A stretch of DNA of 52,624 nt from Eledone cirrhosa (Eukaryota): positions 1 through 52,624 of the forward strand of contig CAXHJY010000371.1 in assembly GCA_964016885.1 (NCBI GenBank), read 5' to 3'. Positions within the stretch are counted from its first letter, which is position 1. Each line of letters starts with the position of its first letter. Of the stretch, positions 1 to 51,459 are shown in pieces. The notes under the pieces are model-generated. The model saw nothing but the letters and a program-made list of their open reading frames with translations. It had not been told where the DNA came from and searched no databases. Made by a program: the position numbers and the translations under genes.

Positions 1-1545
1 GTATCCGAAAGAACGTTTGTCTGGAAACTGGTGAGTCGAAAAAAAAATATCTCGGTGGTAGTAGCAAATATTCGTATGCGAAAGAAAAGATCTCGGTGGT
101 AGTAGCAAATATTCGAACGAGACATTCGTAGGCGAAAGAAAAATATCTCGGTGGTAGTAGCAAATATTCGAACGAGACATTCGTATGCGAAAGAACGTTT
201 GTCGGTGGTAGTAGCAAATATTCGAACGAGACATTCGTATGCGAAAGAACGTTTGTCTGGAAGTGGCGATCCATGCCCGGTGGATAGTTGGTTCCGGGTT
301 TTACTATGATTGTTGCAAAACAGAAACTTAAAGGGATTGACAGAATTTGCGATTACGGAGAGGGGGCGATCCGTCTGCTTGATTCCGATAACGAACGAGA
401 CATTCGTATCCGAAAGAACGTTTGTCTGGAAACTGGTGAGTCAGTGAGTCGAAAAAAAAATATCTCGGTGGTAGTAGCAAATATTCGAACGAGACATTCG
501 TATGCGAAAGAACGTTTGTCGGTGGTAGTAGCAAATATTCGAACGAGACATTCGTATGCGAAAGAACGTTTGTCTGGAAGTGGCGATCCATGCCCGGTGG
601 ATAGTTGGTTCCGGGTTTTACTATGATTGTTGCAAAACAGAAACTTAAAGGGATTGACAGAATTTGCGATTCCGGAGAGGGGGCGATCCGTCTGCTTGAT
701 TCCGATAACGAACGAGACATTCGTATCCGAAAGAACGTTTGTCTGGAAACTGGTGAGTCAGTGAGTCGAAAAAAAAATATCTCGGTGGTAGTAGCAAATA
801 TTCGTATGCGAAAGAAAAGATCTCGGTGGTAGTAGCAAATATTCGAACGAGACATTCGTAGGCGAAAGAAAAATATCTCGGTGGTAGTAGCAAATATTCG
901 AACGAGACATTCGTATGCGAAAGAACGTTTGTCGGTGGTAGTAGCAAATATTCGAACGAGACATTCGTATGCGAAAGAACGTTTGTCGGTGGTAGTAGCA
1001 AATATTCGAACGAGACATTCGTATGCGAAAGAACGTTTGTCGGTGGTAGTAGCAAATATTCGAACGAGACATTCGTATGCGAAAGAACGTTTGTCTGGAA
1101 GTGGCGATCCATGCCCGGTGGATAGTTGGTTCCGGGCTTTACTATGATTGTTGCAAAACAGAAACTTAAAGGGATTGACAGAATTTGCGATTCCGGAGAG
1201 GGGGCGATCCGTCTGCTTGATTCCGATAACGAACGAGACATTCGTATCCGAAAGAACGTTTGTCTGGAAACTGGTGAGTCAGTGAGTCGAAAAAAAAATA
1301 TCTCGGTGGTAGTAGCAAATATTCGTATGCGAAAGAAAAGATCTCGGTGGTAGTAGCAAATATTCGAACGAGACATTCGTATGCGAAAGAAAAATATCTC
1401 GGTGGTAGTAGCAAATATTCGAACGAGACATTCGTATTCGAAAGAACGTTTGTCTGGAAGTTGCGATCCATGCCCGGTGGATAGTTGGTTCCGGGCTTTA
1501 CTATGATTGTTGCAAAACAGAAACTTAAAGGAATTGACAGAATTT
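1..1545 (+). repeat. rRNA-derived satellite array (copy 1, truncated by window start); ~263-bp core plus variable numbers of a 54-bp subunit
   Basis: Tandem periods of 317 and 521 bp and a 54-bp subunit (CGGTGGTAGTAGCAAATATTCGAACGAGACATTCGTATGCGAAAGAACGTTTGT). It carries 18S-like motifs (GATTCCGGAGAGGG, GTCTGCTTGATTCCGATAACGAACGAGAC, GAAACTTAAAGGGATTGAC) and the 28S-like motif GATCTCGGTGGTAGTAGCAAATATTC. Confidence 0.9.
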
Positions 1546-1574
1546 TCGAATCGACATCAACTCGGCTACGGCTA

Positions 1575-1925
1575 TCCCGTCGAGTACGAGAGTATCGCGG
1601 GATCAGAGCAACGGTTTGCTAGGCTGCCTCTGAGCGATAACGGCTGAACGCCTCCTCTAAGCCGGAACCCTAGCCGGACCCGAGTTGTTTTTCGACAAGC
1701 GTCTCGACCTTCTTAAGGCCCATGCCTTAGTTTGGCGATTGCCGTCCGTTCGCCGACGGCGGCAGCGTCAGCGGAAATGCCATTCTGTGACGACTACGAC
1801 GATTCGTCGTCGTCGTCGTCCATTCGATTTCCTGAAAGAGATAGAGACTAAAGTGATCAAATTGTTCGGAGTTACGTGCTTAGTAGAGCAGCTACCACAC
1901 TGCAATCTATTGAGAGTTTTCTGAC
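1575..1925 (+). pseudogene. Degenerate 28S rRNA 3'-end fragment (copy 1)
   Basis: AGTACGAGAG (sarcin-ricin loop core) at 1583-1592, then GGCTGAACGCCTC..TAAG, then AGTAGAGCAGCTACC..TGCAATCTATTGA, in the canonical LSU 3' order but with large deletions. Confidence 0.8.
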
Positions 1926-2784
1926 GAACGATACAATCCGCCCACGTGGCGCCAGAAAGGGAGAAGAAAAGAAAAGTTAGACGCCGCCGATCGATCGGTT
2001 CGTTGTTTTACGTGTACACAGCTTGTGTGTGTGTCTGTATGTGATACAAGCCGCCTATCCGTCTTCCAAGTAAGTTTTGTGTGTAGACTGCGGAAAGAAA
2101 TCCAATCCGCCGTCTAGGCGGTTCTGCCGCCGACCCATACTTTTGCGAGTCGCTCCCGGGAAAGACAGGCGGCAAGACGGCGTGTATACACGACGCCTTC
2201 CGTCTTCCGCCTCGAACCCGGCAAACGTTCCTTTATTCGTCCACGCCTTCCCGCTTCGATCGCGAGAAAGTAATCAATCTGTTTTGTGTGTGTGTCTGTG
2301 TGTGATACAAATTTGTTTTCTTAATTTGATAACCATGAATTGTTTCAACACCGGCCCTTTTAAGGGCCACTTATATTTTCAATAATCAGTTTAAATGGGT
2401 TGCACCGTAGCCACTTGGTAATACACTGCAAATCTCCCGTCAATCTATGAAGGTTTTGTAGTAGATTAGATCAAAACACAATCAGCAAGACAGTAATGGA
2501 ATGAATAATATAAACATTTGTTTATAATTAAAGCCTTAAGATGTCCCTCCCTCCCTCCCTTCCTTCCTTCCTTCCTTCCTTCCTTCCTTCCTTCCTTACG
2601 ATATACACTTTAATAACATTGAAACTTATTTAATAAGTTTAAATTTTAAACACTTTTTATTCAGACGTACCGCGATAAGTAACTAGATATGTTCTAACGA
2701 ATAATCCGCGATGTGGCGAGGATTACCGCGATAGGAAATTAGATACGTTCCAAAGAAATATCCGCGAAAAGTGAACCGCGATAT

Positions 2785-2953: not shown

Positions 2954-3085
2954 CAGTTCTTAGCTGTCGAGACACTGCATCCTTTAAAACCTCCATGGAA
3001 CAAGCTACCTGCAACAGTTGTTAGCTGTCGAGACACTGCATCTTTTAAAACCTCCATGGAACAAACTACCTGCATCAGTTGTTAG
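2954..3085 (+). repeat. 61-bp tandem repeat (~2.2 copies) derived from the 3' end of CR1 ORF2
   Basis: TTAGCTGTCGAGACACTGCATCCTTTAA and CATGGAACAAACTACCTGC match the reverse complement of ~15280-15340 (WNKLPASIVSCRDTASFK). Confidence 0.8.
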
Positions 3086-3143
3086 GGTCTGAGTTCAAAT
3101 CACGCCGAGGAGGTTAACTTTGCCTTTCATCCTTACGGGGTCG
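3086..3143 (+). mobile_element. SINE fragment with B-box-like GAGTTCAAATC
   Basis: Nearly identical to 12658-12712. Confidence 0.65.
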
Positions 3144-3351
3144 GTCGGAAAACGAACCATTCCCGGTTCGCTTTCGAAGCGGGTTTCCGAAAACAGCGCT
3201 TCTCTCGACCGGGCCCGTCGTCCGCTCGGCGGTGGTTTTCATCGTCCCAGGCACGGCTAACAGGCGGAGACGGGACAAACGCGCGTGTTCCTTTTTTTAT
3301 CAGCCGCAGCGCCGTTCGTATATATGCTTAGGTTGTTTTTTTTTTAAATAT

Positions 3352-3584
3352 CCTAAGTTAAGTTGGGGCTAAGTTAAGTTGGGGCTAAGTTAAGTTGAGG
3401 TTAAGTTGAGTTGGGGTTAAGTTAAGTGGGGGTTAAGTTAAGCTGGGGTTAAGTTAAGTTGAGGTTAAGTTAAGTTGGGGTTAAGTCAAGTTGGGGTTAA
3501 GTTAAGTTGGGGTTAAGTTAGGTTGGGGTTAAGTTAGGTTGGGGTTAAGTTAAGTTGGGGTTAAGTTAGGTTGCGGTTAAGTTA
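3352..3584 (+). repeat. 15-bp G-rich tandem repeat (GTTAAGTTAAGTTGGG-like), telomere-like
   Basis: About 15 copies of TTAAG-TTAAG-TTGGGG with TTAGG variants. Confidence 0.95.
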
Positions 3585-6500
3585 CATTCGCCGCCGGACT
3601 TCAGCTTCCTCATTTAGCATGGGCAGTTTTTCTTGAAAATCACACCACACACAGCAAATGTGTGTCCGCACATGTACCAGTAATTACAGATCGATTCCGG
3701 TGAAAATTCACTGAAAACGGGCCATCCGGCCCTGTGCGTCGATCGTGGGCCGGCCGGATGTTGACGGATCGATGTGTAATTAGAAGTACATGTGCGGACA
3801 CTCATTGGCTGTGCGTGGTATGCATTTCAGCAAGATATCTCCGTAACATCAAGAGTTATGGCTGTGGAGGCACACCTAGTCAAACGTAAACAAGGTCTGG
3901 AGCGTTTACGCTTCGCGATTTTGTTTACGTTTGACTAGGTGTGCCTCCACAGCCACAACTCTTGATGTTACGGAGATATCTTGCTGAAATGCATACCGCG
4001 CACAGCCAATGAGTGTCCGCACATGTACTTCTAATTACACATCGATCCGTCAACATCCGGCCGGCCCACGATCGACGCACAGGGCCGGATGGCCCGTTTT
4101 CAGTGAATTTTCACCGGAATCGATCTGTAATTACTGGTACATGTGCGGAGACACATTTGCTGTGTGTGGTGTGATTTTCAAGAAAAGCTGCCCATGCTAA
4201 ATGAGGAAGCTGAAGTCCGCCGGCGAATGGTGTGCTTCGAAGAAAACTAATTCGAAAATGACCGTTTGCAGGCGGAGTAACCTTTTCGATCGTGGGCCAG
4301 CCGCCCGTGGTGGGATCCATCTGTAATTACTGGTACATGTGCGGACATACATTTGCTGTGTGTGGTGTGATTTTCAAGAAGAACTGCCCATGCTAAATGA
4401 GGAAGCTGAAGTCCGCCGGCGAATGGTGTGCTTCGAAGAAAACTAATTCGAAAATGACCGTTTGCAGGCGGGGTAACCTTTTCGATCGTGGGCCAGCCGC
4501 CCGTGGTGGGATACATCTGTAATTACTGGTACATGTGCGGACACACATTTGCTGTGTGTGGTGTGATTTTCGAGAAAGACTGCCCATGCTAAATGAGGAA
4601 GCTGAAGTCCGCCGGCGAATGGTGTGCTTCGAAGAAAACTAATTCGAAAATGACTATTTGCCGGCGGAATCACCTTTTCGGTCCTGGTCCGGCCGGATCT
4701 TGCCGGATCGATCGGAAATTTGTGGACCATGTTCGGAAGGCCATTGTGCATGTGTGGTGAAAAAAATTTGTGTCGAAATCTTCTCGGAAAATAACGGATC
4801 GCCGGCGGAGATTGCCATTTCGATCGTGGGCCGGCCGGATCTTGTCGGATCGATTCGGACATATGTGCATCGTGTTCGCAAGGCCCTTGTCTATGTGTGG
4901 TGTGATTTTCATAAAGAAATTCCGAAAAACCCAGTTTTAAATCTGATTTCGCCAAAGAATTTTGGCTATCAGATCGGGTTGAAAGGTATGGTTTCAGGTC
5001 GATCTGAAAGTCTAAAATGGAATTCACTCGGTTAGCTAACTATTGATATTTCGGAGATATCTTTCTGAAAATCACACCACACACTCCCAATGAGTGTCTG
5101 CACATGTACCAGTAATTACAGATGGATCCCACCACGGGCGGCCGGCCCACGATCGAAAAGGTTACTCCGAAGCACACCATTCGCCGGCGGAATTCATTTA
5201 GCATGGGCAGTTTTTCTCGAAAATCACACCACACACAGCCAATGAGTGTCCGCACATGTACCAGTAATTACAGATGGATCCCACCACGGGCGGCTGGCCC
5301 ACGATCGAAAAGGTTACTCCGCCTGCAAACGGTCATTTTCGAATTAGTTTTCTTCGAAGCACACCATTCGCCGGCGGACTTCAGCTTCCTCATTTAGCAT
5401 GGGCAGTTTTTCTCGAAAATCACACCACACACAGCAAATGTGTGTCCGCACATGTACCAGTAATTACAGATCGATTCCGGTGAAAATTCACTGAAAACGG
5501 GCCATTCTGCCCTGTGCGTCGATCGTGGGCCGGCCGGATGTTGACGGATCGATGTGTAATTAGAAGTACATGTGCGGACACTCATTGGCTGTGCGTGGTA
5601 TGCATTTCAGCAAGATATCTCCGTAACATCAAGAGTTATGGCTGTGGAGGCACACCTAGTCAAACGTAAACAAGCTCTGGAGCGTATACGCTTCGCGATT
5701 TTGTTTACGTTTGACTAGGTGTGCCTCCACAGCCACAACTCTTGATGTTACGGAGATATCTTGCTGAAATGCATACCACGCACAGCCAATGAGTGTCCGC
5801 ACATGTACTTCTAATTACACATCGATCCGTCAACATCCGGCCGGCCCACGATCGACGCACAGGGCCGGATGGCCCGTTTTCAGTGAATTTTCACCGGAAT
5901 CGATCTGTAATTACTGGTACATGTGCGGACACACATTTGCTGTGTGTGGTGTGATTTTCACGAAAAACTGCCCATGCTAAATGAGGAAGCTGAAGTCCGC
6001 CGGCGAATGGTGTGCTTCGAAGAAAACTAATTCGAAAATGACCGTTTGCAGGCGGAGTAACCTTTTCGATCGTGGGCCAGCCGCCCGTGGTGGGATACAT
6101 CTGTAATTACTGGTACATGTGCGGACACACATTTGCTGTGTGTGGTGTGATTTTCGAGAAAGACTGCCCATGCTAAATGAGGAAGCTGAAGTCCGCCGGC
6201 GAATGGTGTGCTTCGAAGAAAACTAATTCGAAAATGACTATTTGCCGGCGGAATCACCTTTTCGGTCCTGGTCCGGCCGGATCTTGCCGGATCGATCGGA
6301 AATTTGTGGACCATGTTCGGAAGGCCATTGTGCATGTGTGGTGAAAAAAATTTGTGTCGAAATCTTCTCGGAAAATAACGGATCGCCGGCGGAGATTGCC
6401 ATTTCGATCGTGGGCCGGCCGGATCTTGTCGGATCGATTCGGACATATGTGCATCGTGTTCGCAAGGCCCTTGTCTATGTGTGGTGTGATTTTCATAAAG

Positions 6501-7415
6501 AAATTCCGAAAAACCCAGTTTTAAATCTGATTTCGCCAAAGAATTTTGGCTATCAGATCGGGTTGAAAGGTATGGTTTCAGGTCGATCTGAAAGTCTAAA
6601 ATGGAATTCACTCGGTTAGCTAACTATTGATATATCGGAGATATCTTTCTGAAAATCACACCACACACTCCCAATGAGTGTCTGCACATGTACCAGTAAT
6701 TACAGATGGATCCCACCACGGGCGGCCGGCCCACGATCGAAAAGGTTACTCCGAAGCACACCATTCGCCGGCGGAATTCATTTAGCATGGGCAGTTTTTC
6801 TCGAAAATCACACCACACACAGCCAATGAGTGTCCGCACATGTACCAGTAATTACAGATGGATCCCACCACGGGCGGCTGGCCCACGATCGAAAAGGTTA
6901 CTCCGCCTGCAAACGGTCATTTTCGAATTAGTTTTCTTCGAAGCACACCATTCGCCGGCGGACTTCAGCTTCCTCATTTAGCATGGGCAGTTTTTCTTGA
7001 AAATCACACCACACACAGCAAATGTGTGTCCGCACATGTACCAGTAATTACAGATCGATTCCGGTGAAAATTCACTGAAAACGGGCCATTCGGCCCTGTG
7101 CGTCGATCGTGGGCCGGCCGGATGTTGACGGATCGATGTGTAATTAGAAGTACATGTGCGGACACTCATTGGCTGTGCGTGGTATGCATTTCACTAAGAT
7201 ATCTCCGTAACATCAAGAGTTATGGCTGTGGAGGCACACCTAGTCAAACGTAAACAAGGTCTGGAGCGTTTACGCTTCGCGATTTTGTTTACGTTTGACT
7301 AGGTGTGCCTCCACAGCGACAACTCTTGATGTTACGGAGATATCTTGCTGAAATTCATACCACGCACAGCCAATGAGTGTCCGCACATGTACCTGTAATT
7401 ACACATCGATCCGAC
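3585..7415. repeat. Palindromic higher-order satellite, array 1 (1584-bp period, 196-bp subunits)
   Basis: Identical ORF translations recur at +1584 (4443 and 6027) and on opposite strands (3614- and 4009+). Palindrome centres at ~3907, 5687 and 7271. Confidence 0.95.
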
Positions 7416-7500
7416 GACGGACAGAGTATTCGGTTTATTTTCTTGACATATTTCTTTACATATTGTCCAGGCATGCACTTTTTCCATGATTAGTTCTGTT

Positions 7501-7555
7501 GACGGCCCGCTTTCCAAAATACCTTATCCTGTGCAACGCCGGGTACCACTGCTAG
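7501..7555 (+). mobile_element. Helitron-type 3' terminus
   Basis: Subterminal GC hairpin CCTGTGCAACGCCGGG, then CTAG (7552-7555), then T. This is the canonical Helitron 3' signature; a homologue lies at 10646-10700 (-). Confidence 0.75.
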
Positions 7556-7774
7556 TATATATATGTGTATGTATATATATATATATATATTGGTAAACGG
7601 AATAGAAAATTGTGACAAATTGTTCACAGTGAAAAATAGTTTAATTAGGAATAAGTGATAATTAGTAATAGTATTGGTTAGTATTAAGTTTTGGTTTTAA
7701 GTTTTACCGGTTGCGCATTTCTAATGCTTTTCAAAAATAATTTTGAGATAGAGCGTCCGTGATGTTTGCTCTGA

Positions 7775-14962: not shown

Positions 14963-15242
14963 TAATAATAATAATAATAATGAAATGATTGTGTACAGTG
15001 CTCAGGTGCACTACAACTCATCAAAGGTGCATGTATAGTACATAGAATAATGTACAAATGTCAGGAAAATAAACAGTGTATGAGTCATGATATAATAACA
15101 ATAACAATAATGAAATATTGTGCACAGTGCCCAGGTGCACCACAACCCATCAAAAAAGTGCATGTACAGTACATAGGGCAATGCACAAACATCAGTAAAA
15201 TGAACAGTGCACACATGTGTGCATGTGTATGGAAGGGGCACA

Positions 15243-18008: not shown

Positions 18009-18064
18009 TTTGTACCCTGCTCGCAGTCTATGATGGTGTGTAGAGGGTGGCAGGTTGTTCTGGT

Positions 18065-21505: not shown

Positions 21506-21544
21506 ACCTGGCCCTTACCCTAACCCCAACCTCTTTGGTTTTCG

Positions 21545-29462: not shown

Positions 29463-29812
29463 CCGGTTCGGGCGACGTAAAAGTCTGTAGCCTTTTCGCC
29501 GATCCTCGACGATTATCCGCCTTCCGAACAACCGCCGTCACAGCAGTAGGTACTCGTCCGTCGTAATAGCCGTCATTTTAATGCAGGAGAAACGCCTAAA
29601 TGCACTGCGATTAACGACGATCTACGACGCGCTTACTCTTCCTTGCTGCGACGAAGGTTTCGTTCGGCTTTTCGTCGTGGACCCGGTCAGGTCATGCCGC
29701 TGATCTCGCGTTGCGTCGTTACCGCTGGAGCAACGCAAATTACTCCTCGTTTAACGCCAACATCGAACGCGCTTCGGTTCTCGGTCGTCGTTGTTTTGTT
29801 TCGTGCGGAAGA

Positions 29813-29996
29813 TACCTGGGTGATCCTGCCAGTAGTCATATGCTTGTCTCAAAGCTTAAGCCATGCAAGTGGAAGTTCATGCCGTAAACGAAAATGGTGA
29901 AACCGCGAATGGCTCAGGAACCGGATCTAATCCTCGGGACCGTATTCCTCACCGCGAGGAGAGGATAACTGTGGCAATTCTAGAGCTAATACATGC
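29813..29996 (+). pseudogene. 18S rRNA 5'-end fragment
   Basis: TACCTGGGTGATCCTGCCAGTAGTCATATGCTTGTCTCAAAGCTTAAGCCATGCA, GGTGAAACCGCGAATGGCTCA and GGATAACTGTGGCAATTCTAGAGCTAATACATGC match the universal eukaryotic SSU start with few substitutions. Confidence 0.95.
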
Positions 29997-30002
29997 AATT
30001 GA

Positions 30003-32517: not shown

Positions 32518-32546
32518 TCGAATCGACATCAACTCGGCTACGGCTA

Positions 32547-34567: not shown

Positions 34568-37500
34568 CATTCGCCGCCGGACTTCAGCTTCCTCATTTAG
34601 CATGGGCAGTTTTTCTTGAAAATCACACCACACACAGCAAATGTGTGTCCGCACATGTACCAGTAATTACAGATCGATTCCGGTGAAAATTCACTGAAAA
34701 CGGGCCATCCGGCCCTGTGCGTCGATCGTGGGCCGGCCGGATGTTGACGGATCGATGTGTAATTAGAAGTACATGTGCGGACACTCATTGGCTGTGCGTG
34801 GTATGCATTTCAGCAAGATATCTCCGTAACATCAAGAGTTATGGCTGTGGAGGCACACCTAGTCAAACGTAAACAAGGTCTGGAGCGTTTACGCTTCGCG
34901 ATTTTGTTTACGTTTGACTAGGTGTGCCTCCACAGCCATAACTCTTGATGTTACGGAGATATCTTGCTGAAATGCATACCGCGCACAGCCAATGAGTGTC
35001 CGCACATGTACTTCTAATTACACATCGATCCGTCAACATCCGGCCGGCCCACGATCGACGCACAGGGCCGGATGGCCCGTTTTCAGTGAATTTTCACGGG
35101 AATCGATCTGTAATTACTGGTACATGTGCGGAGACACATTTGCTGTGTGTGGTGTGATTTTCAAGAAAAACTGCCCATGCTAAATGAGGAAGCTGAAGTC
35201 CGCCGGCGAATGGTGTGCTTCGAAGAAAACTAATTCGAAAATGACCGTTTGCAGGCGGAGTAACCTTTTCGATCGTGGGCCAGCCGCCCGTGGTGGGATC
35301 CATCTGTAATTACTGGTACATGTGCGGACATACATTTGCTGTGTGTGGTGTGATTTTCAAGAAGAACTGCCCATGCTAAATGAGGAAGCTGAAGTCCGCC
35401 GGCGAATGGTGTGCTTCGAAGAAAACTAATTCGAAAATGACCGTTTGCAGGCGGGGTAACCTTTTCGATCGTGGGCCAGCCGCCCGTGGTGGGATCCATC
35501 TGTAATTACTGGTACATGTGCGGACACACATTTGCTGTGTGTGGTGTGATTTTCGAGAAAGACTGCCCATGCTAAATGAGGAAGCTGAAGTCCGCCGGCG
35601 AATGGTGTGCTTCGAAGAAAACTAATTCGAAAATGACTATTTGCCGGCGGAATCACCTTTTCGGTCCTGGTCCGGCCGGATCTTGCCGGATCGATCGGAA
35701 ATTTGTGGACCATGTTCGGAAGGCCATTGTGCATGTGTGGTGAAAAAAATTTGTGTCGAAATCTTCTCGGAAAATAACGGATCGCCGGCGGAGATTGCCA
35801 TTTCGATCGTGGGCCGGCCGGATCTTGTCGGATCGATTCGGACATATGTGCATCGTGTTCGCAAGGCCCTTGTCTATGTGTGGTGTGATTTTCATAAAGA
35901 AATTCCGAAAAACCCAGTTTTAAATCTGATTTCGCCAAAGAATTTTGGCTATCAGATCGGGTTGAAAGGTATGGTTTCAGGTCGATCTGAAAGTCTAAAA
36001 TGGAATTCACTCGGTTAGCTAACTATTGATATATCGGAGATATCTTTCTGAAAATCACACCACACACTCCCAATGAGTGTCTGCACATGTACCAGTAATT
36101 ACAGATGGATCCCACCACGGGCGGCCGGCCCACGATCGAAAAGGTTACTCCGAAGCACACCATTCGCCGGCGGAATTCATTTAGCATGGGCAGTTTTTCT
36201 CGAAAATCACACCACACACAGCCAATGAGTGTCCGCACATGTACCAGTAATTACAGATGGATCCCACCACGGGCGGCTGGCCCACGATCGAAAAGGTTAC
36301 TCCGCCTGCAAACGGTCATTTTCGAATTCGTTTTCTTCGAAGCACACGATTCGCCGGCGGACTTCAGCCGCCTCATTTAGCATGGGCAGTTTTTCTCGAA
36401 AATCACACCACACACAGTAAATGTGTGTCCGCACATGTACCAGTAATTACAGATCGATTCCGGTGAAAATTCACTGAAAACGGGCCATTCGGCCCTGTGC
36501 GTCGATCGTGGGCCGGCCGGATGTTGACGGATCGATGTGTAATTAGAAGTACATGTGCGGACACTCATTGGCTGTGCGTGGTATGCATTTCAGCAAGATA
36601 TCTCCGTAACATCAAGAGTTATGGCTGTGGAGGCACACCTAGTCAAACGTAAACAAGCTCTGGAGCGTATACGCTTCGCGATTTTGTTTACGTTTGACTA
36701 GGTGTGCCTCCACAGCCACAACTCTTGATGTTACGGAGATATCTTGCTGAAATACATACCACGCACAGCCAATGAGTGTCCGCACATGTACTTCTAATTA
36801 CACATCGATCCGTCAACATCCGGCCGGCCCACGATCGACGCACAGGGCCGGATGGCCCGTTTTCAGTGAATTTTCACCGGAATCGATCTGTAATTACTGG
36901 TACATGTGCGGACACACATTTGCTGTGTGTGGTGTGATTTTCACGAAAAACTGCCCATGCTAAATGAGGAAGCTGAAGTCCGCCGGCGAATGGTGTGCTT
37001 CGAAGAAAACTAATTCGAAAATGACCGTTTGCAGGCGGAGTAACCTTTTCGATCGTGGGCCAGCCGCCCGTGGTGGGATACATCTGTAATTACTGGTACA
37101 TGTGCGGACACACATTTGCTGTGTGTGGTGTGATTTTCGAGAAAGACTGCCCATGCTAAATGAGGAAGCTGAAGTCCGCCGGCGAATGGTGTGCTTCGAA
37201 GAAAACTAATTCGAAAATGACTATTTGCCGGCGGAATCACCTTTTCGGTCCTGGTCCGGCCGGATCTTGCCGGATCGATCGGAAATTTGTGGACCATGTT
37301 CGGAAGGCCATTGTGCATGTGTGGTGAAAAAAATTTGTGTCGAAATCTTCTCGGAAAATAACGGATCGCCGGCGGAGATTGCCATTTCGATCGTGGGCCG
37401 GCCGGATCTTGTCGGATCGATTCGGACATATGTGCATCGTGTTCGCAAGGCCCTTGTCTATGTGTGGTGTGATTTTCATAAAGAAATTCCGAAAAACCCA

Positions 37501-40500
37501 GTTTTAAATCTGATTTCGCCAAAGAATTTTGGCTATCAGATCGGGTTGAAAGGTATGGTTTCAGGTCGATCTGAAAGTCTAAAATGGAATTCACTCGGTT
37601 AGCTAACTTTTGATATATCGGAGATATCTTTCTGAAAATCACACCACACACTCCCAATGAGTGTCTGCACATGTACCAGTAATTACAGATGGATCCCACC
37701 ACGGGCGGCCGGCCCACGATCGAAAAGGTTACTCCGAAGCATACCATTCGCCGGCGGAATTCATTTAGCATGGGCAGTTTTTCTCGAAAATCACACCACA
37801 CACAGCCAATGAGTGTCCGCACATGTACCAGTAATTACAGATGGATCCCACCACGGGCGGCTGGCCCACGATCGAAAAGGTTACTCCGCCTGCAAACGGT
37901 CATTTTCGAATTCGTTTTCTTCGAAGCACACGATTCGCCGGCGGACTTCAGCTGCCTCATTTAGCATGGGCAGTTTTTCTCGAAAATCACACCACACACA
38001 GCAAATGTGTGTCCGCACATGTACCAGTAATTACAGATCGATTCCGGTGAAAATTCACTGAAAACGGGCCATTCGGCCCTGTGCGTCGATCGTGGGCCGG
38101 CCGGATGTTGACGGATCGATGTGTAATTAGAAGTACATGTGCGGACACTCATTGGCTGTGCGTGGTATGCATTTCAGCAAGATATCTCCGTAACATCAAG
38201 AGTTATGGCTGTGGAGGCACACCTAGTCAAACGTAAACAAGCTCTGGAGCGTATACGCTTCGCGATTTTGTTTACGTTTGACTAGGTGTGCCTCCACAGC
38301 CACAACTCTTGATGTTACGGAGATATCTTGCTGAAATGCATACCACGCACAGCCAATGAGTGTCCGCACATGTACTTCTAATTACACATCGATCCGTCAA
38401 CATCCGGCCGGCCCACGATCGACGCACAGGGCCGGATGGCCCGTTTTCAGTGAATTTTCACCGGAATCGATCTGTAATTACTGGTACATGTGCGGACACA
38501 CATTTGCTGTGTGTGGTGTGATTTTCACGAAAAACTGCCCATGCTAAATGAGGAAGCTGAAGTCCGCCGGCGAATGGTGTGCTTCGAAGAAAACTAATTC
38601 GAAAATGACCGTTTGCAGGCGGAGTAACCTTTTCGATCGTGGGCCAGCCGCCCGTATTGGGATACATCTGTAATTACTGGTACATGTGCGGACACACATT
38701 TGCTGTGTGTGGTGTGATTTTCGAGAAAGACTGCCCATGCTAAATGAGGAAGCTGAAGTCCGCCGGCGAATGGTGTGCTTCGAAGAAAACTAATTCGAAA
38801 ATGACTATTTGCCGGCGGAATCACCTTTTCGGTCCTGGTCCGGCCGGATCTTGCCGGATCGATCGGAAATTTGTGGACCATGTTCGGAAGGCCATTGTGC
38901 ATGTGTGGTGAAAAAAATTTGTGTCGAAATCTTCTCGGAAAATAACGGATCGCCGGCGGAGATTGCCATTTCGATCGTGGGCCGGCCGGATCTTGTCGGA
39001 TCGATTCGGACATATGTGCATCGTGTTCGCAAAGCCCTTGTCTATGTGTGGTGTGATTTTCATAAAGAAATTCCGAAAAACCCAGTTTTAAATCTGATTT
39101 CGCCAAAGAATTTTGGCTATCAGATCGGGTTGAAAGGTATGGTTTCAGGTCGATCTGAAAGTCTAAAATGGAATTCACTCGGTTAGCTAACTTTTGATAT
39201 ATCGGAGATATCTTTCTGAAAATCACACCACACACTCCCAATGAGTGTCTGCACATGTACCAGTAATTACAGATGGATCCCACCACGGGCGGCCGGCCCA
39301 CGATCGAAAAGGTTACTCCGAAGCACACCATTCGCCGGCGGAATTCATTTAGCATGGGCAGTTTTTCTCGGAAATCACACCACACACAGCCAATGAGTGT
39401 CCGCACATGTACCAGTAATTACAGATGGATCCCACCACGGGCGGCTGGCCCACGATCGAAAAGGTTACTCCGCCTGCAAACGGTCATTTTCGAATTCGTT
39501 TTCTTCGAAGCACACGATTCGCCGGCGGACTTCAGCTGCCTCATTTAGCATGGGCAGTTTTTCTCGAAAATCACACCACACACAGCAAATGTGTGTCCGC
39601 ACATGTACCAGTAATTACAGATCGATTCCGGTGAAAATTCACTGAAAACGGGCCATTCGGCCCTGTGCGTCGATCGTGGGCCGGCCGGATGTTGACGGAT
39701 CGATGTGTAATTAGAAGTACATGTGCGGACACTCATTGGCTGTGCCTGGTATGCATTTCAGCAAGATATCTCCGTAACATCAAGAGTTATGGCTGTGGAG
39801 GCACACCTAGTCAAACGTAAACAAGCTCTGGAGCGTATACGCTTCGCGATTTTGTTTACGTTTGACTAGGTGTGCCTCCACAGCCACAACTCTTGATGTT
39901 ACGGAGATATCTTGCTGAAATGCATACCACGCACAGCCAATGAGTGTCCGCACATGTACTCTAATTACACATCGATCCGTCAACATCCGGCCGGCTCACG
40001 ATCGACGCACAGGGCCGGATGGCCCGTTTTCAGTGAATTTTCACCGGAATCGATCTGTAATTACTGGTACATGTGCGGACACACATTTGCTGTGTGTGGT
40101 GTGATTTTCACGAAAAACTGCCCATGCTAAATGAGGAAGCTGAAGTCCGCCGGCGAATGGTGTGCTTCGAAGAAAACTAATTCGAAAATGACCGTTTGCA
40201 GGCGGAGTAACCTTTTCGATCGTGGGCCAGCCGCCCGTGGTGGGATACATCTGTAATTACTGGTACATGTGCGGACACACATTTGCTGTGTGTGGTGTGA
40301 TTTTCGAGAAAGACTGCCCATGCTAAATGAGGAAGCTGAAGTCCGCCGGCGAATGGTGTGCTTCGAAGAAAACTAATTCGAAAATGACTATTTGCCGGCG
40401 GAATCACCTTTTCGGTCCTGGTCCGGCCGGATCTTGTCGGATCGATTCGGACATATGTGCATCGTGTTCGCAAGGCCCTTGTCTATGTGTGGTGTGATTT

Positions 40501-41031
40501 TCATAAAGAAATTCTGAAAAACCCAGTTTTAAATCTGATTTCGCCAAAGAATTTTGGGTATCAGATCGGGTTGAAAGGTATGGTTTCAGGTCGATCTGAA
40601 AGTTTAAAATGGAATTCACTCGGTTAGTTAACTTTTGATATATCGGAGATATCTTTCTGAAAATCACACCACACACTCCCAATGAGTGTCTGCACATGTC
40701 CCAGTAATTACAGATGGATCCCACCACGGGCGGCCGGCCCACGATCGAAAAGGTTACTCCGAAGCACACCATTCGCCGGCGGACTTCATTTAGCATGGGC
40801 AGTTTTTCTTGAAGATCACACCACACACAGCCAATCAGTGTCCGCACATGTACCAGTAATTACAGATGGATCCCACTACGGGCGGCTGGCCCACGATCGA
40901 AAAGGTTACTCCGCCTGCAAACGGTCATTTTCGAATTCGTTTTCTTCGAAGCACACCATTCGCCGGCGGACTTCAGCTGCCTCATTTAGCATGGGCAGCT
41001 TTTCTCGAAAATCACAACACACACAGCCAAT
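34568..41031. repeat. Palindromic higher-order satellite, array 2
   Basis: Centres at ~34890, 36670, 38254 and 39838; the last unit has an internal deletion. Confidence 0.95.
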
Positions 41032-41074
41032 GAGTTTAAAATACTCACCGTTTGATTTGGAAAAACTTAAAATG

Positions 41075-43761: not shown

Positions 43762-46591
43762 ACATTTAACCCTTTAGCATTTAAACCAGCCATACCTAGC
43801 CAGAATACTCTCACATCTTTCTGTTCAAACCAGCCATAACTGGCCACTCATACTGACGTTAAGGTATTGTTCTCAATATAAATAATATCAAAATCTCATA
43901 GATTCGATATTATATGAGATAATTATGTAAGATAAAGCCTTTACCACAAAAATACAATAGTATATATAGAGTAATAAAAATGCTAAAGGGTAAAAGTAGC
44001 TTATTATTTTGTGAGCTCTTGCTACTTATTGCTCTTGTGCATCAAGAACATACACAGCTTACATTTTGTTGCTAATCTCACTGAGATCCAACTACATCTC
44101 TTGTTTATCCATAGTTTGGAATTTCTACCTACTCCTTTCCTTTAGAATGATCAAGGCCATTTTCTTGTGGGGATCTAGGCCCTGTTTTCCTTTCTATTTT
44201 GCCAAGTTATCTTACATCACTTTCATTCTAGACCATGCTTCCAGGTTTGGAATTTCTCCTCTAATTTTACCACAGATTAAGTGACAAGGGTTCAATCATG
44301 TGCATACAGGAGTTCCCATGGACAGCCAGTAATATGTAATAGCCTGCAGGATGATAATAAACAGAAGAGGGTTAATTACAGAGCCCTGATAGAGGGTTAA
44401 TAACAGAGCCCTGATAGACTTGTTCACTCAACTCCTCACTATAGCCATCATTACTTTTAACCTTACTGACTGCTCCTCCATACATGGCTTTTACTGCTCT
44501 CACAAGCCACTCATATACCCCTAGTTTTCTAAGTTATACACCAGATTAGGGAAGGGGGAAGTCTCACAGAAGCTCTCTCTGGGTCAACAAATGCCAAGTA
44601 GAGGGGCTTATTTTAGCTAGGTACTACTCTTGCAGTTGCCACACAAGGAAGAGGACATCAGTGGTACTTTTACCTGGCACAAATCCAAACTTCATCTCAT
44701 CTAGGTTAACTTGGTCCCTAATCAGCTGTGTTATAAATCTAACACCTTCATGAAGTGGTCCATCTAATATCTCTATAGTTTTCTAGCTCTAGTACATCTC
44801 CTTTGCCCTTGTAGCAGTTGATGATGATGATACTACACCATTTATTTGGTATGACACCATTTTGTATTACATGCTGTACGATACCAGTGGTTAAGATGTG
44901 ACCCACCATCCCAGATACTTTCAGTATCTCAGCAACTATCACCAATGGACAAGATACTTTCTCTGTCTTCATATCCTTAATTACCTTACTTCATATCCTT
45001 AATTACCTTACTGCTTACTTGTATGGCTGGACCCTCTGTTGGGCCCACTTTCCGTAGACTATCTTCCTCCCATGCATTCTCCTCATTCAGTAATCTTTCA
45101 TAAAGGCATTTCCATGTTACAAAGGTTGGCTGAAAAGTTCATAGACTATCAATGATAGCATGATGCTAGAGCTGTGAAATCTTGCCTGCATTAATTTCAA
45201 CTCTTCTTATTAATAACTGCATTGTTTCCTTCCAGGGACTATGTTGAAAAATAAACCTCATTTGGTCATTCCATGAGTGTATCTTGGTCTGCCTATGAAC
45301 TTTTCAGCTGACCCTATTCAGCATCAGTGAGCCCAAATGCCCCATTATCATCCTGGACACACTTTACCCCAACATCACAATTTGCCCTCACACACTGCCT
45401 CACAATCCTGAACATCTCATGTATTTCATCCTCACATCATAAAACCAACTGAAATTATATATTCTCTGCTTCCCTCCTTGCAAAGAATACTTCTTGCCTA
45501 GCTTCCTGTAGTGTACCCTCCAGCTGCCTCCATTCTGCCATTATTCCATGCCTGTCTCTTGGCCTTAACTGTCTCATCTACCCTAGTGTTTCACCACCAA
45601 GATACTCTCCTCTCTGAAGCCCTGCTCCAGCCACAGATCTAGTTTGACACCTTCAGCAAAGGTTCTTTAAGGAACTCCCACTGTTCCCCTATATTGTATG
45701 TTTCTATTTGTTCTTCCTTACTGTTGTAAAGATCAAACAAAATATCTCTAAATTTGGAACTGGCTGAGGGGTCCTTTAACTTCCATATCCTTCTCCTCCA
45801 AGTTGCCCTCAGTCTTCAAGTTCATCTAAGTCTATGAAATCACTAACTACTGGGTTATGTTGGGAGGTGCATTCTTCCCCAGGGGGTGGGGATTGTGTGT
45901 TTACAAATGTCAATATCTCATCTTCTGGTGAGGATAAAAATCTGACTGGCATGCTCCTCTGACCAATAGGTGTTGAAGTGGTTGTCGGGTAAACGTTAAG
46001 ACCCTCTGATATACATATATATATATATACTAGCAGTGGTACCCGGCGTTGCACGGGATAACGTATTTCGGAACGCGGGCCGCCATCTTCCACTTCAGCC
46101 GGTCGCCCTAAAGTGTTGGCTATTCAGTCTACTTGAGGCCAGTTGGTGAGGGGGGGTAAAGCTTTCAGTGTGCTACTACCCTCACGGTCAAATAGAAAGG
46201 GAGAGGAAGAAAAGTCAGCGTTAATATCGTGCTACACGTTTGAAAGGTTGGATGACCTTAGAGTTCACCAGGGTGGGGGGTTCTAAAAGTATCTATCTTG
46301 GTATTTTATCTTAGAAGTAATCATTACAGAGTGTACTGGGTGTATTTTAGTGGGCAGTAATTCCATAAAGAACACAGTATAATCTGTGGACACAAGCCTT
46401 GCAGTGTGATTACAGGCAGGTTAATGGGAAAGATAGATTATATATGTGACATGATGTACATGAGAAGTGAGGACACAGACCACACATGAAATAGATTCCT
46501 ACAACTGTCAGGGAGGCTCCCTAGAATTACAGATGACATATTTCAATATCTCGGTGATCAAGTTAGCAGTGGAGGAAGAATCTCTAAAAGT
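43762..46591 (+). repeat. Segmental duplicate of 8378-11207 (includes MITE 43770-43990, RTE remnant, mariner-like MITE and Helitron end at 46030)
   Basis: Constant offset of 35384 and identical ORF translations. Confidence 0.95.
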
Positions 46592-49500
46592 CACACCACA
46601 CACAGCCAATGAGTGTCCGCACATGTACCAGTAATTACAGATGGATCCCACCACGGGCGGCTGGCCCACGATCGAAAAGGTTACTCCGCCTGCAAACGGT
46701 CATTTTCGAATTCGTTTTCTTCGAAGCACACGATTCGCCGGCGGACTTCAGCTGCCTCATTTAGCATGGGCAGTTTTTCTCGAAAATCACACCACACACA
46801 GCAAATGTGTGTCCGCACATGTACCAGTAATTACAGATCGATTCCGGTGAAAATTCACTGAAAACGGGCCATTCGGCCCTGTGCGTCGATCGTGGGCCGG
46901 CCGGATGTTGACGGATCGATGTGTAATTAGAAGTACATGTGCGGACACTCATTGGCTGTGCGTGGTATGCATTTCAGCAAGATATCTCCGTAACATCAAG
47001 AGTTATGGCTGTGGAGGCACACCTAGTCAAACGTAAACAAGCTCTGGAGCGTATACGCTTCGCGATTTTGTTTACGTTTGACTAGGTGTGCCTCCACAGC
47101 CACAACTCTTGATGTTACGGAGATATCTTGCTGAAATGCATACCACGCACAGCCAATGAGTGTCCGCACATGTACTTCTAATTACACATCGATCCGTCAA
47201 CATCCGGCCGGCCCACGATCGGCGCACAGGGCCGGATGGCCCGTTTTCAGTGAATTTTCACCGGAATCGATCTGTAATTACTGGTACATGTGCGGACACA
47301 CATTTGCTGTGTGTGGTGTGATTTTCAAGAAGAACTGCCCATGCTAAATGAGGAAGCTGAAGTCCGCCGGCGAATGGTGTGCTTCGAAGAAAACTAATTC
47401 GAAAATGACCGTTTGCAGGCGGGGTAACCTTTTCGATCGTGGGCCAGCCGCCCGTGGTGGGATCCATCTGTAATTACTGGTACATGTGCGGACACACATT
47501 TGCTGTGTGTGGTGTGATTTTCGAGAAAGACTGCCCATGCTAAATGAGGAAGCTGAAGTCCGCCGGCGAATGGTGTGCTTCGAAGAAAACTAATTCGAAA
47601 ATGACTATTTGCCGGCGGAATCACCTTTTCGGTCCTGGTCCGGCCGGATCTTGCCGGATCGATCGGAAATTTGTGGACCATGTTCGGAAGGCCATTGTGC
47701 ATGTGTGGTGAAAAAAATTTGTGTCGAAATCTTCTCGGAAAATAACGGATCGCCGGCGGAGATTGCCATTTCGATCGTGGGCCGGCCGGATCTTGTCGGA
47801 TCGATTCGGACATATGTGCATCGTGTTCGCAAGGCCCTTGTCTATGTGTGGTGTGATTTTCATAAAGAAATTCCGAAAAACCCAGTTTTAAATCTGATTT
47901 CGCCAAAGAATTTTGGCTATCAGATCGGGTTGAAAGGTATGGTTTCAGGTCGATCTGAAAGTCTAAAATGGAATTCACTCGGTTAGCTAACTATTGATAT
48001 ATCGGAGATATCTTTCTGAAAATCACACCACACACTCCCAATGAGTGTCTGCACATGTACCAGTAATTACAGATGGATCCCACCACGGGCGGCCGGCCCA
48101 CGATCGAAAAGGTTACTCCGAAGCACACCATTCGCCGGCGGAATTCATTTAGCATGGGCAGTTTTTCTCGAAAATCACACCACACACAGCCAATGAGTGT
48201 CCGCACATGTACCAGTAATTACAGATGGATCCCACCACGGGCGGCTGGCCCACGATCGAAAAGGTTACTCCGCCTGCAAACGGTCATTTTCGAATTCGTT
48301 TTCTTCGAAGCACACGATTCGCCGGCGGACTTCAGCTGCCTCATTTAGCATGGGCAGTTTTTCTCGAAAATCACACCACACACAGCAAATGTGTGTCCGC
48401 ACATGTACCAGTAATTACAGATCGATTCCGGTGAAAATTCACTGAAAACGGGCCATTCGGCCCTGTGCGTCGATCGTGGGCCGGCCGGATGTTGACGGAT
48501 CGATGTGTAATTAGAAGTACATGTGCGGACACTCATTGGCTGTGCGTGGTATGCATTTCAGCAAGATATCTCCGTCACATCAAGAGTTATGGCTGTGGAG
48601 GCACACCTAGTCAAACGTAAACAAGCTCTGGAGCGTATACGCTTCGCGATTTTGTTTACGTTTGACTAGGTGTGCCTCCACAGCCACAACTCTTGATGTT
48701 ACGGAGATATCTTGCTGAAATGCATACCACGCACAGCCAATGAGTGTCCGCACATGTACTTCTAATTACACATCGATCCGTCAACATCCGGCCGGCCCAC
48801 GATCGACGCACAGGGCCGGATGGCCCGTTTTCAGTGAATTTTCACCGGAATCGATCTGTAATTACTGGTACATGTGCGGACACACATTTGCTGTGTGTGG
48901 TGTGATTTTCACGAAAAACTGCCCATGCTAAATGAGGAAGCTGAAGTCCGCCGGCGAATGGTGTGCTTCGAAGAAAACTAATTCGAAAATGACCGTTTGC
49001 AGGCGGAGTAACCTTTTCGATCGTGGGCCAGCCGCCCGTATTGGGATACATCTGTAATTACTGGTACATGTGCGGACACACATTTGCTGTGTGTGGTGTG
49101 ATTTTCGAGAAAGACTGCCCATGCTAAATGAGGAAGCTGAAGTCCGCCGGCGAATGGTGTGCTTCGAAGAAAACTAATTCGAAAATGACTATTTGCCGGC
49201 GGAATCACCTTTTCGGTCCTGGTCCGGCCGGATCTTGCCGGATCGATCGGAAATTTGTGGACCATGTTCGGAAGGCCATTGTGCATGTGTGGTGAAAAAA
49301 ATTTGTGTCGAAATCTTCTCGGAAAATAACGGATCGCCGGCGGAGATTGCCATTTCGATCGTGGGCCGGCCGGATCTTGTCGGATCGATTCGGACATATG
49401 TGCATCGTGTTCGCAAGGCCCTTGTCTATGTGTGGTGTGATTTTCATAAAGAAATTCCGAAAAACCCAGTTTTAAATCTGATTTCGCCAAAGAATTTTGG

Positions 49501-51418
49501 CTATCAGATCGGGTTGAAAGGTATGGTTTCAGGTCGATCTGAAAGTCTAAAATGGAATTCACTCGGTTAGCTAACTTTTGATATATCGGAGATATCTTTC
49601 TGAAAATCACACCACACACTCCCAATGAGTGTCTGCACATGTACCAGTAATTACAGATGGATCCCACCACGGGCGGCCGGCCCACGATCGAAAAGGTTAC
49701 TCCGAAGCACACCATTCGCCGGCGGAATTCATTTAGCATGGGCAGTTTTTCTCGAAAATCACACCACACACAGCCAATGAGTGTCCGCACATGTACCAGT
49801 AATTACAGATGGATCCCACCACGGGCGGCTGGCCCACGATCGAAAAGGTTACTCCGCCTGCAAACGGTCATTTTCGAATTCGTTTTCTTCGAAGCACACG
49901 ATTCGCCGGCGGACTTCAGCTGCCTCATTTAGCATGGGCAGTTTTTCTCGAAAATCACACCACACACAGCAAATGTGTGTCCGCACATGTACCAGTAATT
50001 ACAGATCGATTCCGGTGAAAATTCACTGAAAACGGGCCATTCGGCCCTGTGCGTCGATCGTGGGCCGGCCGGATGTTGACGGATCGATGTGTAATTAGAA
50101 GTACATGTGCGGACACTCATTGGCTGTGCCTGGTATGCATTTCAGCAAGATATCTCCGTAACATCAAGAGTTATGGCTGTGGAGGCACACCTAGTCAAAC
50201 GTAAACAAGCTCTGGAGTGTATACGCTTCGCGATTTTGTTTACGTTTGACTAGGTGTGCCTCCACAGCCACAACTCTTGATGTTACGGAGATATCTTGCT
50301 GAAATGCATACCACGCACAGCCAATGAGTGTCCGCACATGTACTCTAATTACACATCGATCCGTCAACATCCGGCCGGCTCACGATCGACGCACAGGGCC
50401 GGATGGCCCGTTTTCAGTGAATTTTCACCGGAATCGATCTGTAATTACTGGTACATGTGCGGACACACATTTGCTGTGTGTGGTGTGATTTTCACGAAAA
50501 ACTGCCCATGCTAAATGAGGAAGCTGAAGTCCGCCGGCGAATGGTGTGCTTCGAAGAAAACTAATTCGAAAATGACCGTTTGCAGGCGGAGTAACCTTTT
50601 CGATCGTGGGCCAGCCGCCCGTGGTGGGATACATCTGTAATTACTGGTACATGTGCGGACACACATTTGCTGTGTGTGGTGTGATTTTCGAGAAAGACTG
50701 CCCATGCTAAATGAGGAAGCTGAAGTCCGCCGGCGAATGGTGTGCTTCGAAGAAAACTAATTCGAAAATGACTATTTGCCGGCGGAATCACCTTTTCGGT
50801 CCTGGTCCGGCCGGATCTTGTCGGATCGATTCGGACATATGTGCATCGTGTTCGCAAGGCCCTTGTCTATGTGTGGTGTGATTTTCATAAAGAAATTCTG
50901 AAAAACCCAGTTTTAAATCTGATTTCGCCAAAGAATTTTGGGTATCAGATCGGGTTGAAAGGTATGGTTTCAGGTCGATCTGAAAGTTTAAAATGGAATT
51001 CACTCGGTTAGTTAACTTTTGATATATCGGAGATATCTTTCTGAAAATCACACCACACACTCCCAATGAGTGTCTGCACATGTCCCAGTAATTACAGATG
51101 GATCCCACCACGGGCGGCCGGCCCACGATCGAAAAGGTTACTCCGAAGCACACCATTCGCCGGCGGACTTCATTTAGCATGGGCAGTTTTTCTTGAAGAT
51201 CACACCACACACAGCCAATCAGTGTCCGCACATGTACCAGTAATTACAGATGGATCCCACTACGGGCGGCTGGCCCACGATCGAAAAGGTTACTCCGCCT
51301 GCAAACGGTCATTTTCGAATTCGTTTTCTTCGAAGCACACGATTCGCCGGCGGACTTCAGCTGCCTCATTTAGCATGGGCAGCTTTTCTCGAAAATCACA
51401 CCACACACAGCAAATGAG
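46591..51418. repeat. Palindromic higher-order satellite, array 3
   Basis: Centres at ~47054, 48638 and 50222; offset 10384 from array 2. Confidence 0.95.
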
Positions 51419-51459
51419 TTTAAAATACTCACCGTTTGATTTGGAAAAACTTAAAATGC

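What the first reader, a model, noticed from the sequence alone, without database searches (positions are those of the whole stretch)
3585..7415. Satellite built as a chain of long palindromes (ten hairpin centres in the window)
Seen: 196-bp subunits switch strand twice per 1584-bp period. One switch is a near-perfect inverted repeat with arms of ~310 bp (centre 3907) to ~480 bp or more (centre 5687) around a 27-nt spacer, CTAGTCAAACGTAAACAA-[27]-TTGTTTACGTTTGACTAG. The spacer holds its own mini-palindrome, AGCGT(A/T)TACGCT. The other switch (~4890-5080) is a degenerate inverted junction. Head-to-head plus tail-to-tail concatemers are unusual for satellites. They resemble fold-back or rolling-hairpin replication products and should extrude cruciforms or yield long dsRNA if transcribed.
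Basis: partly seen in the sequence, partly recalled or inferred. Interest (0 to 1): 0.75.

Follow-up and report, generated by a model that had tools for sequence, protein, structure and literature searches.

The report
Palindromic satellite folded from ordinary repeat
This is a real DNA repeat whose 1.4-2 kb unit contains a near-perfect mirror-image copy of itself and is stacked head-to-tail about 400 times in this animal genome; it likely arose when the genome's ordinary 196-base repeat folded back on itself at a small built-in hairpin, which makes it a new example of a repeat type already known from flour beetles.

Summary
The ten hairpin centres are real: arms reach 480 bp at 98%, with a 27-nt spacer. 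Both junctions also occur in short-read contigs from other studies. Subunits switch strand four times per period, not twice.

It is not a rolling-hairpin concatemer. 123 of 124 spacers and 117 of 117 second junctions face the same way, and the arms keep fixed differences. It is a head-to-tail array of one internally palindromic monomer, about 410 copies genome-wide. The copies lie in a ~105-kb array on C18 and inside a gutted-rDNA macro-repeat (62 marker hits, 45 on C28). Intact rDNA spacers lack it.

The arms derive from the genome's abundant 196/227-bp satellite. The tip aligns with a weak short inverted repeat in a read-through monomer of that satellite, and a C2 locus keeps an apparent intermediate. 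Origin by fold-back at that site is inferred.

Closest known: Tribolium TmSat2/MAD2, the 1061-bp T. brevicornis satellite and TAUD2. The scan reported this satellite before on other DNA of this genome (e1-10311073).

The parts
3354..3584 (+). G-rich 16-mer array (TAAGTTAAGTTGGGGT x14.4). It abuts the satellite here and also partners the same satellite family on C2 and C3.
3585..7420 (.). Palindromic satellite array 1 (centres 3907, 5687, 7271; periods 1780 and 1584)
5194..6180 (.). Main palindrome A: arms 5194-5673 and 5701-6180, 480 nt, 98% complementary
5656..5718 (+). Tip A: 18-nt inner arms plus 27-nt spacer (5674-5700) with a 12-nt mini-palindrome; colinear with the short inverted repeat of the read-through satellite monomer
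   Evidence: 87-nt short-read contig 5644-5730 with 0 differences in X1 and X4
3876..3938 (+). Tip A, first unit (arms 309 nt, 5 mismatches)
7240..7302 (+). Tip A, last unit; right arm truncated at about 7420
5415..5608 (.).
5765..5960 (.). Inner axis C, right copy: the mirror image of the left copy across A
4815..5161 (.). Degenerate axis B centred near 4988 (nested pairs 76-93%; inner 25-nt arms, 7-nt loop)
   Evidence: one 492-nt short-read contig spans 4700-5116 in X4 and X8
4119..4695 (+). Tandem 196-bp subunits (2.9 copies), the monomer of the genome's ordinary head-to-tail satellite
7422..7555 (+). 3' end of a Helitron-like non-autonomous element (hairpin + CTAG; class label recalled). 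A secondary fusion, not part of the monomer.
   Evidence: a copy on C18 has the same 3' end and downstream flank but unrelated upstream sequence
34568..41035 (.). Palindromic satellite array 2 (centres 34890, 36670, 38254, 39838)
46588..51419 (.). Palindromic satellite array 3 (centres 47054, 48638, 50222)
1556..1938 (+). 28S rRNA 3' remnant of the gutted-rDNA macro-unit that carries the satellite
   Evidence: RF02543, model positions 3005-3399; 83% to intact rDNA
29812..30000 (+). 18S 5' remnant (187 nt, 96% to intact rDNA) followed by scrambled-rRNA repeats; start of the next macro-unit

Best explanation
This is a head-to-tail satellite whose 1.4-2 kb monomer contains a ~1-kb inverted repeat built from the genome's ordinary 196/227-bp satellite, likely created by one fold-back (template switch) at a short built-in inverted repeat and then likely copied as a passive unit by unequal exchange or rolling-circle amplification. 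Shown: the structure, the uniform orientation, the kinship to the ordinary satellite, and the colinearity of tip A with the short inverted repeat of a read-through monomer. Inferred order of events: (1) A patch of the satellite family beside the 16-mer repeat already held strand switches; a C-type axis followed by a read-through monomer survives on C3. (2) A 3' end just past the short inverted repeat folded back and copied the arm, mirroring axis C; a C2 hairpin keeps the ancestral 17-nt loop and turns back 12 nt past the repeat. (3) The right arm was later made nearly identical to the left and the loop gained a mini-palindrome. (4) The segment from old axis B to the next B was tandemly amplified, with 196-bp gains and losses. 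(5) It was carried inside a gutted-rDNA macro-repeat. The arms still trade variants without flipping the spacer, which points to non-crossover gene conversion. It most likely has no function of its own, although single strands are predicted to snap back into long hairpins.
For: Orientation: 123 of 124 spacers and 117 of 117 B junctions are '+' across the C18, C28 and window samples. Fixed arm mismatch at position 36: every listed hit of the A form is on a left arm and every G form on a right arm, except the one inverted C18 unit. In the window 10 of 10 left arms have A; right arms are 8 G, 1 A, 1 other. Source: one 18-mer of the ordinary satellite has 12,041 hits; L123 on C1 is head-to-tail with 0 inverted pairs. 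A 25-mer of the read-through monomer has 381 hits. That monomer carries a 19-25-nt, 76-79% inverted repeat with a 15-nt loop that aligns with tip A and with three C2 hairpins. C3 holds 16-mer, then a minus subunit, a C-type axis, and the read-through monomer, i.e. the unfolded version of window 3354-3900. Arm exchange, counted by hand: a T/C variant in C18 units is on the left arm only in 38, both arms in 8 and the right arm only in 11; no C28 locus is listed. Fold-back priming at short inverted repeats, down to 5-9 bp in repair-deficient yeast, is established (PMC7999016, passages; PMC4689423, passages).
Against: The seed repeat in read-through monomers folds no better than shuffles (z = -0.02, -1.69, -0.64). 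It could therefore be a decayed relic of an older hairpin rather than its seed, so the direction of history is inferred. The only other strand switch I examined in an ordinary array (C4, L133 near 6455) is not at this site. The intermediate-type junction occurs once in the genome. No long reads, RNA or chromatin data were available. The amplification route (unequal exchange or circle) cannot be told from sequence.
Confidence: 0.68

Rival explanations
1. Hairpin first: an old multi-hairpin patch like the C2 complex, possibly a transposon relic, is ancestral. Both the palindromic monomer and the read-through satellite monomers were cut out of it, so the short inverted repeat is a fossil tip.
For: The C2 patch holds at least five hairpins of 74-283-nt arms at 89-96%, more diverged than A, plus a C-like axis. 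Its arm carries the tip-A 18-mer. The seed in read-through monomers is weak.
Against: The C2 hairpin keeps CTCGTGGTG after the repeat. That is 2 nt out of register for a perfect mirror, but it is the normal start of the next subunit in read-through monomers. The C2 patch is single-copy, whereas the read-through family has thousands of copies. The final product and its head-to-tail amplification are the same under both readings.
Confidence: 0.17
2. An inverted-dimer circle (ODIRA or 'dog-bone' type, with junctions A and B) was rolled out and reintegrated, giving alternating junctions in one orientation.
For: This model predicts alternating junctions at short interrupted inverted repeats (PMC4689423, passages), and rolling-circle copying would keep one orientation, as seen.
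Against: A single circle gives two junctions of equal age and fully mirrored arms. Here A is 97-98% symmetric, while B is 71-93% with indels and unequal subunit numbers.
Confidence: 0.07
3. It is the subrepeated inverted termini of a foldback (FB/Tetris/Rehavkus-like) transposon, or the internal repeat of the adjacent Helitron-like element.
For: Foldback elements carry tandem repeats in their inverted termini and can seed satellites (PMC12581902, passages). A Helitron-like 3' end abuts the array.
Against: On C1-C17 the arm 16-mer has only 3 listed hits outside the C2 patch, against 2 genome-wide for the reversed control. The 2 lone 18-mer hits I fetched have no flanking homology. Array ends differ and show no terminal-repeat pair or target duplication. 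0 of 4 ORFs tested match Pfam. A copy of the Helitron-like end elsewhere has unrelated upstream DNA.
Confidence: 0.04
4. Rolling-hairpin concatemer of a parvovirus-like or other linear replicon.
For: Strands alternate and both junctions are fold-able. One C18 unit has an inverted spacer.
Against: Rolling-hairpin replication inverts the termini each round and gives flip and flop forms (PMC8195378, passages). Here 123 of 124 spacers and 117 of 117 B junctions share one orientation, and the arms keep fixed mismatches. The one flipped unit is inverted through at least 260 nt of both arms and sits at the array end. No phage match. The single 19-mer hit in viral contigs has unrelated flanks.
Confidence: 0.02
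5. Read-chimera or assembly artefact.
For: The window is a small unplaced contig (C398) of near-identical repeats, so the copy number and order of units could be misassembled.
Against: Short-read contigs span tip A (X1, X4: 87 nt, 0 differences) and junction B (X4, X8: 4700-5116, 1-2 differences). The same arm-specific mismatches recur on two chromosomes, which a fold-back chimera would erase.
Confidence: 0.02

Closest known systems
Tribolium madens TmSat2 (MAD2), PMC13081366 (find passages and section 7 part 1 read)
   Same: A complex monomer built wholly from subunits related to the genome's ordinary major satellite. The subunits are oppositely oriented, giving ~300-bp imperfect arms (~600-bp palindrome). 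Monomers are repeated head-to-tail, usually in short arrays.
   Different: Here the monomer is 1.4-2 kb with 480-540-bp arms at 95-98% and four strand switches. It is minor (about 410 copies, roughly 0.02% of the genome). It lies in a gutted-rDNA macro-repeat and one ~105-kb array, not intermixed with the major satellite on all chromosomes. Array-level macro-dyads are essentially absent.
Tribolium brevicornis 1061-bp satellite (two ~470-bp inverted subunits) and T. audax TAUD2 (~700-bp inverted subrepeats), as cited in PMC12581902 (passages; original papers not seen)
   Same: Satellite monomers above 1 kb made of long inverted subunits; arm length close to this one.
   Different: Those are major satellites of wide centromeric regions on all chromosomes. 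This one is low-copy at two main loci, and a likely precursor and intermediate are present in the same genome.
Short-inverted-repeat-primed palindrome formation: fold-back priming, tandem inverted duplication, ODIRA (PMC7999016, PMC4689423; passages)
   Same: The long palindrome is centred on a short interrupted inverted repeat whose loop is retained.
   Different: Those are experimental or somatic events giving single amplicons. Here the product is in the reference genome and has been amplified into a satellite, and the seed is imperfect and weak.
Foldback transposons with subrepeated termini (Tetris, Rehavkus; PMC12581902 passages)
   Same: Tandem subrepeats arranged in long inverted arms.
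   Different: No dispersal, matched termini, target duplication or transposase was found here.

Membership tests
Satellite DNA with inverted-subunit monomers (Tribolium type) | Long head-to-tail tandem array of one monomer | tested here: met
   62 consecutive centres over ~105 kb on C18 (6.747-6.853 Mb; 65 on C18 in all); uniform marker orientation
Satellite DNA with inverted-subunit monomers (Tribolium type) | Monomer contains long inverted subunits | tested here: met
   480-nt arms at 98%
Satellite DNA with inverted-subunit monomers (Tribolium type) | Subunits related to an ordinary head-to-tail satellite of the same genome | tested here: met
Satellite DNA with inverted-subunit monomers (Tribolium type) | (Peri)centromeric location on many chromosomes (a trait of the Tribolium cases) | tested here: inconclusive
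   Found on C18, C28 and small contigs. The C28 array starts beside a pure 16-mer block of at least 10 kb. No CENP-A data.
Rolling-hairpin (parvovirus-type) concatemer | Terminal loops in both flip and flop orientations | tested here: not met
   123 of 124 and 117 of 117 in one orientation
Rolling-hairpin (parvovirus-type) concatemer | Successive units are exact reverse complements between the two hairpins | tested here: not met
   71-93% with indels across B; fixed arm mismatches
Rolling-hairpin (parvovirus-type) concatemer | Rep/NS1 gene or viral homology | tested here: not met
   0 of 4 ORFs with a Pfam hit (13 ORFs of at least 80 aa listed, several being repeats of each other)
Foldback DNA transposon | Dispersed copies | tested here: not met
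   (place lists complete for C1-C17 only)
Foldback DNA transposon | Matched terminal inverted repeats with target-site duplication | tested here: not met
   Array ends read
Foldback DNA transposon | Match to a catalogued element (Dfam/Repbase) | not testable with these tools
rDNA intergenic-spacer repeat | Present in spacers of intact rDNA units | tested here: not met
   0 of 16 stretches (160 kb) around intact units on C4, C12 and C25 match the monomer or the 16-mer

The most novel reading that the evidence does not exclude
The animal's major satellite carries a fold-back hotspot that has repeatedly spawned long palindromes: tip A and three differently tipped C2 hairpins turn at the same short inverted repeat. 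One product escaped as an inverted-dimer circle and was rolled out into a new satellite. Precursor, intermediate and amplified product all survive in one genome, so the birth of a palindromic satellite could be traced and tested directly.
Probability: 0.2. Interest if true: 0.65.

Novelty: new member of a known kind. Interest (0 to 1): 0.36.

Why it matters
Long palindromes are usually unstable, yet this genome keeps about 410 tandem copies of a ~1-kb, 95-98% inverted repeat. Only 1 deleted tip was noticed beside the 124 intact ones counted. Satellites with such monomers were described in Tribolium beetles, where the papers I read leave the role of the dyads open. This case, in an animal that looks octopus-like (inferred, not tested), shows the architecture in a low-copy array. 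It also offers a plausible sequence-level route from an ordinary satellite, which argues that such dyads can arise as by-products without a centromeric role. It is a usable natural substrate for measuring arm-to-arm conversion and cruciform or dsRNA formation.

Tried and rejected
Rolling-hairpin concatemer, foldback transposon, Helitron internal repeat, functional rDNA-spacer element and read chimera were all rejected (see rivals and membership rows).

No RNA family in 3300-7600 at E <= 0.1. No tRNA scan was run.

Lone arm hits on C1 and C2:80 Mb have no flanking homology. The viral-contig hit is a lone 19-mer.

The idea that every strand switch in the satellite family uses the seed was rejected: the C4 switch does not. 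Three further stretches holding read-through monomers had no long hairpin at the seed.

Sequencing-run search: no RNA holder listed, which is no evidence on expression. Raw Hi-C run X23 gave 0 reads and is no test. X12 contigs do not cover tip A, but a hole proves nothing. The 20 holder runs carry 18 organism codes, probably cross-contamination or related animals; I did not resolve this, and X2 may be the source sample. An earlier-findings look-up by sequence returned nothing.

Literature: two searches found no paper on a cephalopod satellite of this kind, and one search found no closer case than Tribolium. The held library lacks most subscription papers. Supplements of the Tribolium papers were not read and may hold further palindromic monomers.

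A full subunit phylogeny and a scripted count of arm conversion could not be run; the conversion counts are by hand.
Full report
Observation. The window is a whole small contig (C398) of a 3.0-Gb animal assembly. It holds three arrays of the repeat: 3585-7420, 34568-41035 and 46588-51419. The palindrome at 5687 is 98% complementary over 480 nt and 95% over about 1.07 kb with gaps. A 255-nt piece folds at -149.7 kcal/mol against a shuffle mean of -31. The second switch (B) is a real but decayed axis near 4988, with three nested pairs at 76-93% and fold z = -9.5.

Not an artefact. Short-read contigs of runs X1 and X4 hold an 87-nt contig across tip A with no difference. X4 and X8 hold one contig across B with 1-2 differences. 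These runs belong to different studies, but their relation to the source animal is unknown. The arm-specific mismatches also recur in many units on two chromosomes, which a fold-back read chimera would not reproduce.

Genome context. The inner-arm 18-mer has 411 forward and 409 reverse hits, i.e. about 410 palindromes. 65 centres lie on C18, 62 of them in one continuous ~105-kb array. Most others lie as short runs inside a macro-repeat with 62 marker hits: 45 on C28 (124.69-126.46 Mb), 1 on C18 and 16 on small contigs. The macro-unit is a gutted rDNA copy: promoter-like 172-bp repeats, 187 nt of 18S, a satellite of scrambled rRNA pieces, the 28S end, and then the 16-mer and this satellite. Intact rDNA units on C4, C12 and C25 lack both the monomer and the 16-mer in 16 of 16 stretches, so the satellite is a passenger of the pseudo-unit. 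The Helitron-like end at 7422-7555 is a secondary neighbour: a copy on C18 has the same end and downstream flank but unrelated upstream DNA.

How the array is built. Spacer A and junction B are asymmetric and so report orientation. Among all centres in the fetched C18 and C28 stretches and the window, 123 of 124 spacers and 117 of 117 B junctions point one way (this samples about 30% of all centres). The exception is the last C18 unit, inverted through at least 260 nt of both arms. Periods are mostly 1388, 1584, 1780 and 1976, i.e. steps of 196, with some odd deletions. An A/G difference 36 nt from the spacer is fixed between left and right arms, apart from the inverted unit and one converted arm at 34927. 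Rolling-hairpin replication is expected to give flip and flop termini (PMC8195378, passages) and mirrored units; neither is seen. The array is therefore a head-to-tail repeat of one palindromic monomer. The arms do exchange sequence further out. A T/C variant about 180 nt from the spacer is on the left arm only in 38 C18 units, on both in 8 and on the right only in 11 (hand count; one search suggests 2 of the 38 also carry it on the right). A second variant is on 13 left arms and on 4 right arms of the same units, possibly one event. One tip on C28 has lost 24 nt including half of the mini-palindrome.

Where it came from. A loose contig end led to the ordinary form of the repeat. It is a head-to-tail 196/227-bp satellite with 12,041 hits of one 18-mer, seen on C1, C2 and C4. 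A related ~520-bp satellite with the 16-mer was present at all ten points sampled over 209.40-209.87 Mb of C2. A minority monomer (381 hits of a 25-mer) carries a 19-25-nt imperfect inverted repeat with a 15-nt loop. This aligns with tip A: same left half, related loop start, same right half. After it the ordinary monomer reads on into the next subunit, while A turns back. At the edge of the C2 array a single-copy 2.7-kb patch holds at least five hairpins. Three turn at this same site, and one keeps the A-type left arm, the ancestral loop and the read-through bases CTCGTGGTG before turning. A small island on C3 has the order 16-mer, minus subunit, C-type axis, read-through monomer, matching window 3354-3900 before the fold. 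One fold at the short repeat would mirror C and give the four-switch pattern. Fold-back priming at short inverted repeats is an established route to long palindromes (PMC7999016, PMC4689423; passages).

Limits of that inference. The seed folds no better than shuffled sequence, so it may be a relic rather than a cause. The different C2 tips could come from one old fold remodelled several times. The one other strand switch examined, on C4, lies elsewhere in the monomer. Function is untested. The 27-nt spacer lies between the 12-bp spacer that stalled eukaryotic forks and the 52-bp one that did not (PMC7999016), so hairpins in single-stranded DNA are likely and cruciform extrusion is uncertain.

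Comparison and verdict. T. madens TmSat2 is built from subunits related to the major satellite, inverted within a 704-bp monomer (PMC13081366). The T. brevicornis 1061-bp satellite and T. audax TAUD2 have ~470- and ~700-bp inverted subunits (cited in PMC12581902). The finding is a new member of that kind: longer, more nested, low-copy and outside intact rDNA. The octopus-like identity of the animal is an inference from genome character and earlier notes, not tested here. Interest 0.36.

Noticed in passing
window 1-1552 and 30006-32524: Satellite (54/263/317-bp periods) stitched from short 18S and 28S fragments, replacing the body of the rRNA gene in each macro-unit; up to ~10 kb per unit on C28. 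Already reported by earlier notes of this scan.
   Followed up: partly
window 2348-2392 and 33323-33367: Histone 3' UTR stem-loop (Rfam RF00032, 36.6 bits) downstream of the 28S remnant; no match to this piece in 16 stretches of intact rDNA.
   Followed up: partly
L053:2590-5340 (C2:209.874-209.877 Mb): Single-copy patch of at least five long hairpins with different tips flanked by TGTAAA(C/T)AAA, between a large 520-bp satellite near the middle of a 416-Mb chromosome and AT-rich 37/119-bp and 20-bp arrays.
   Followed up: partly
L154:3800-5400 (C3:184.746 Mb): A ~500-bp island of 16-mer plus satellite subunits embedded in an internal degenerate TAACCC array.
   Followed up: partly
L156 (C28:124.68-124.69 Mb): Pure 16-mer array (625 copies in 10 kb) directly beside the first macro-unit.
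   Followed up: no
L133:~6455 (C4:247.486 Mb): Array-level strand switch in the ordinary 196/227-bp satellite, at a site other than the short inverted repeat.
   Followed up: yes
window 5004 (run X12): In X12 a high-depth contig matches 4700-5004 exactly and then continues into sequence also seen at window ~19427 (LINE-like by recall): a multi-copy variant with junction B interrupted, perhaps another individual or species.
   Followed up: no
window 46588: Array 3 begins by a jump from macro-unit sequence (equivalent to ~11207) straight into a left arm, a partial re-duplication inside the macro-unit; a similar one is at C28:125.2695 Mb.
   Followed up: no
window 15200-18100 (minus strand) and 21540-22400: A LINE-like reverse-transcriptase region (label from reading the sequence, not searched) and a second, broken copy of rDNA promoter/ETS-like sequence are fixed parts of the macro-unit.
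   Followed up: no
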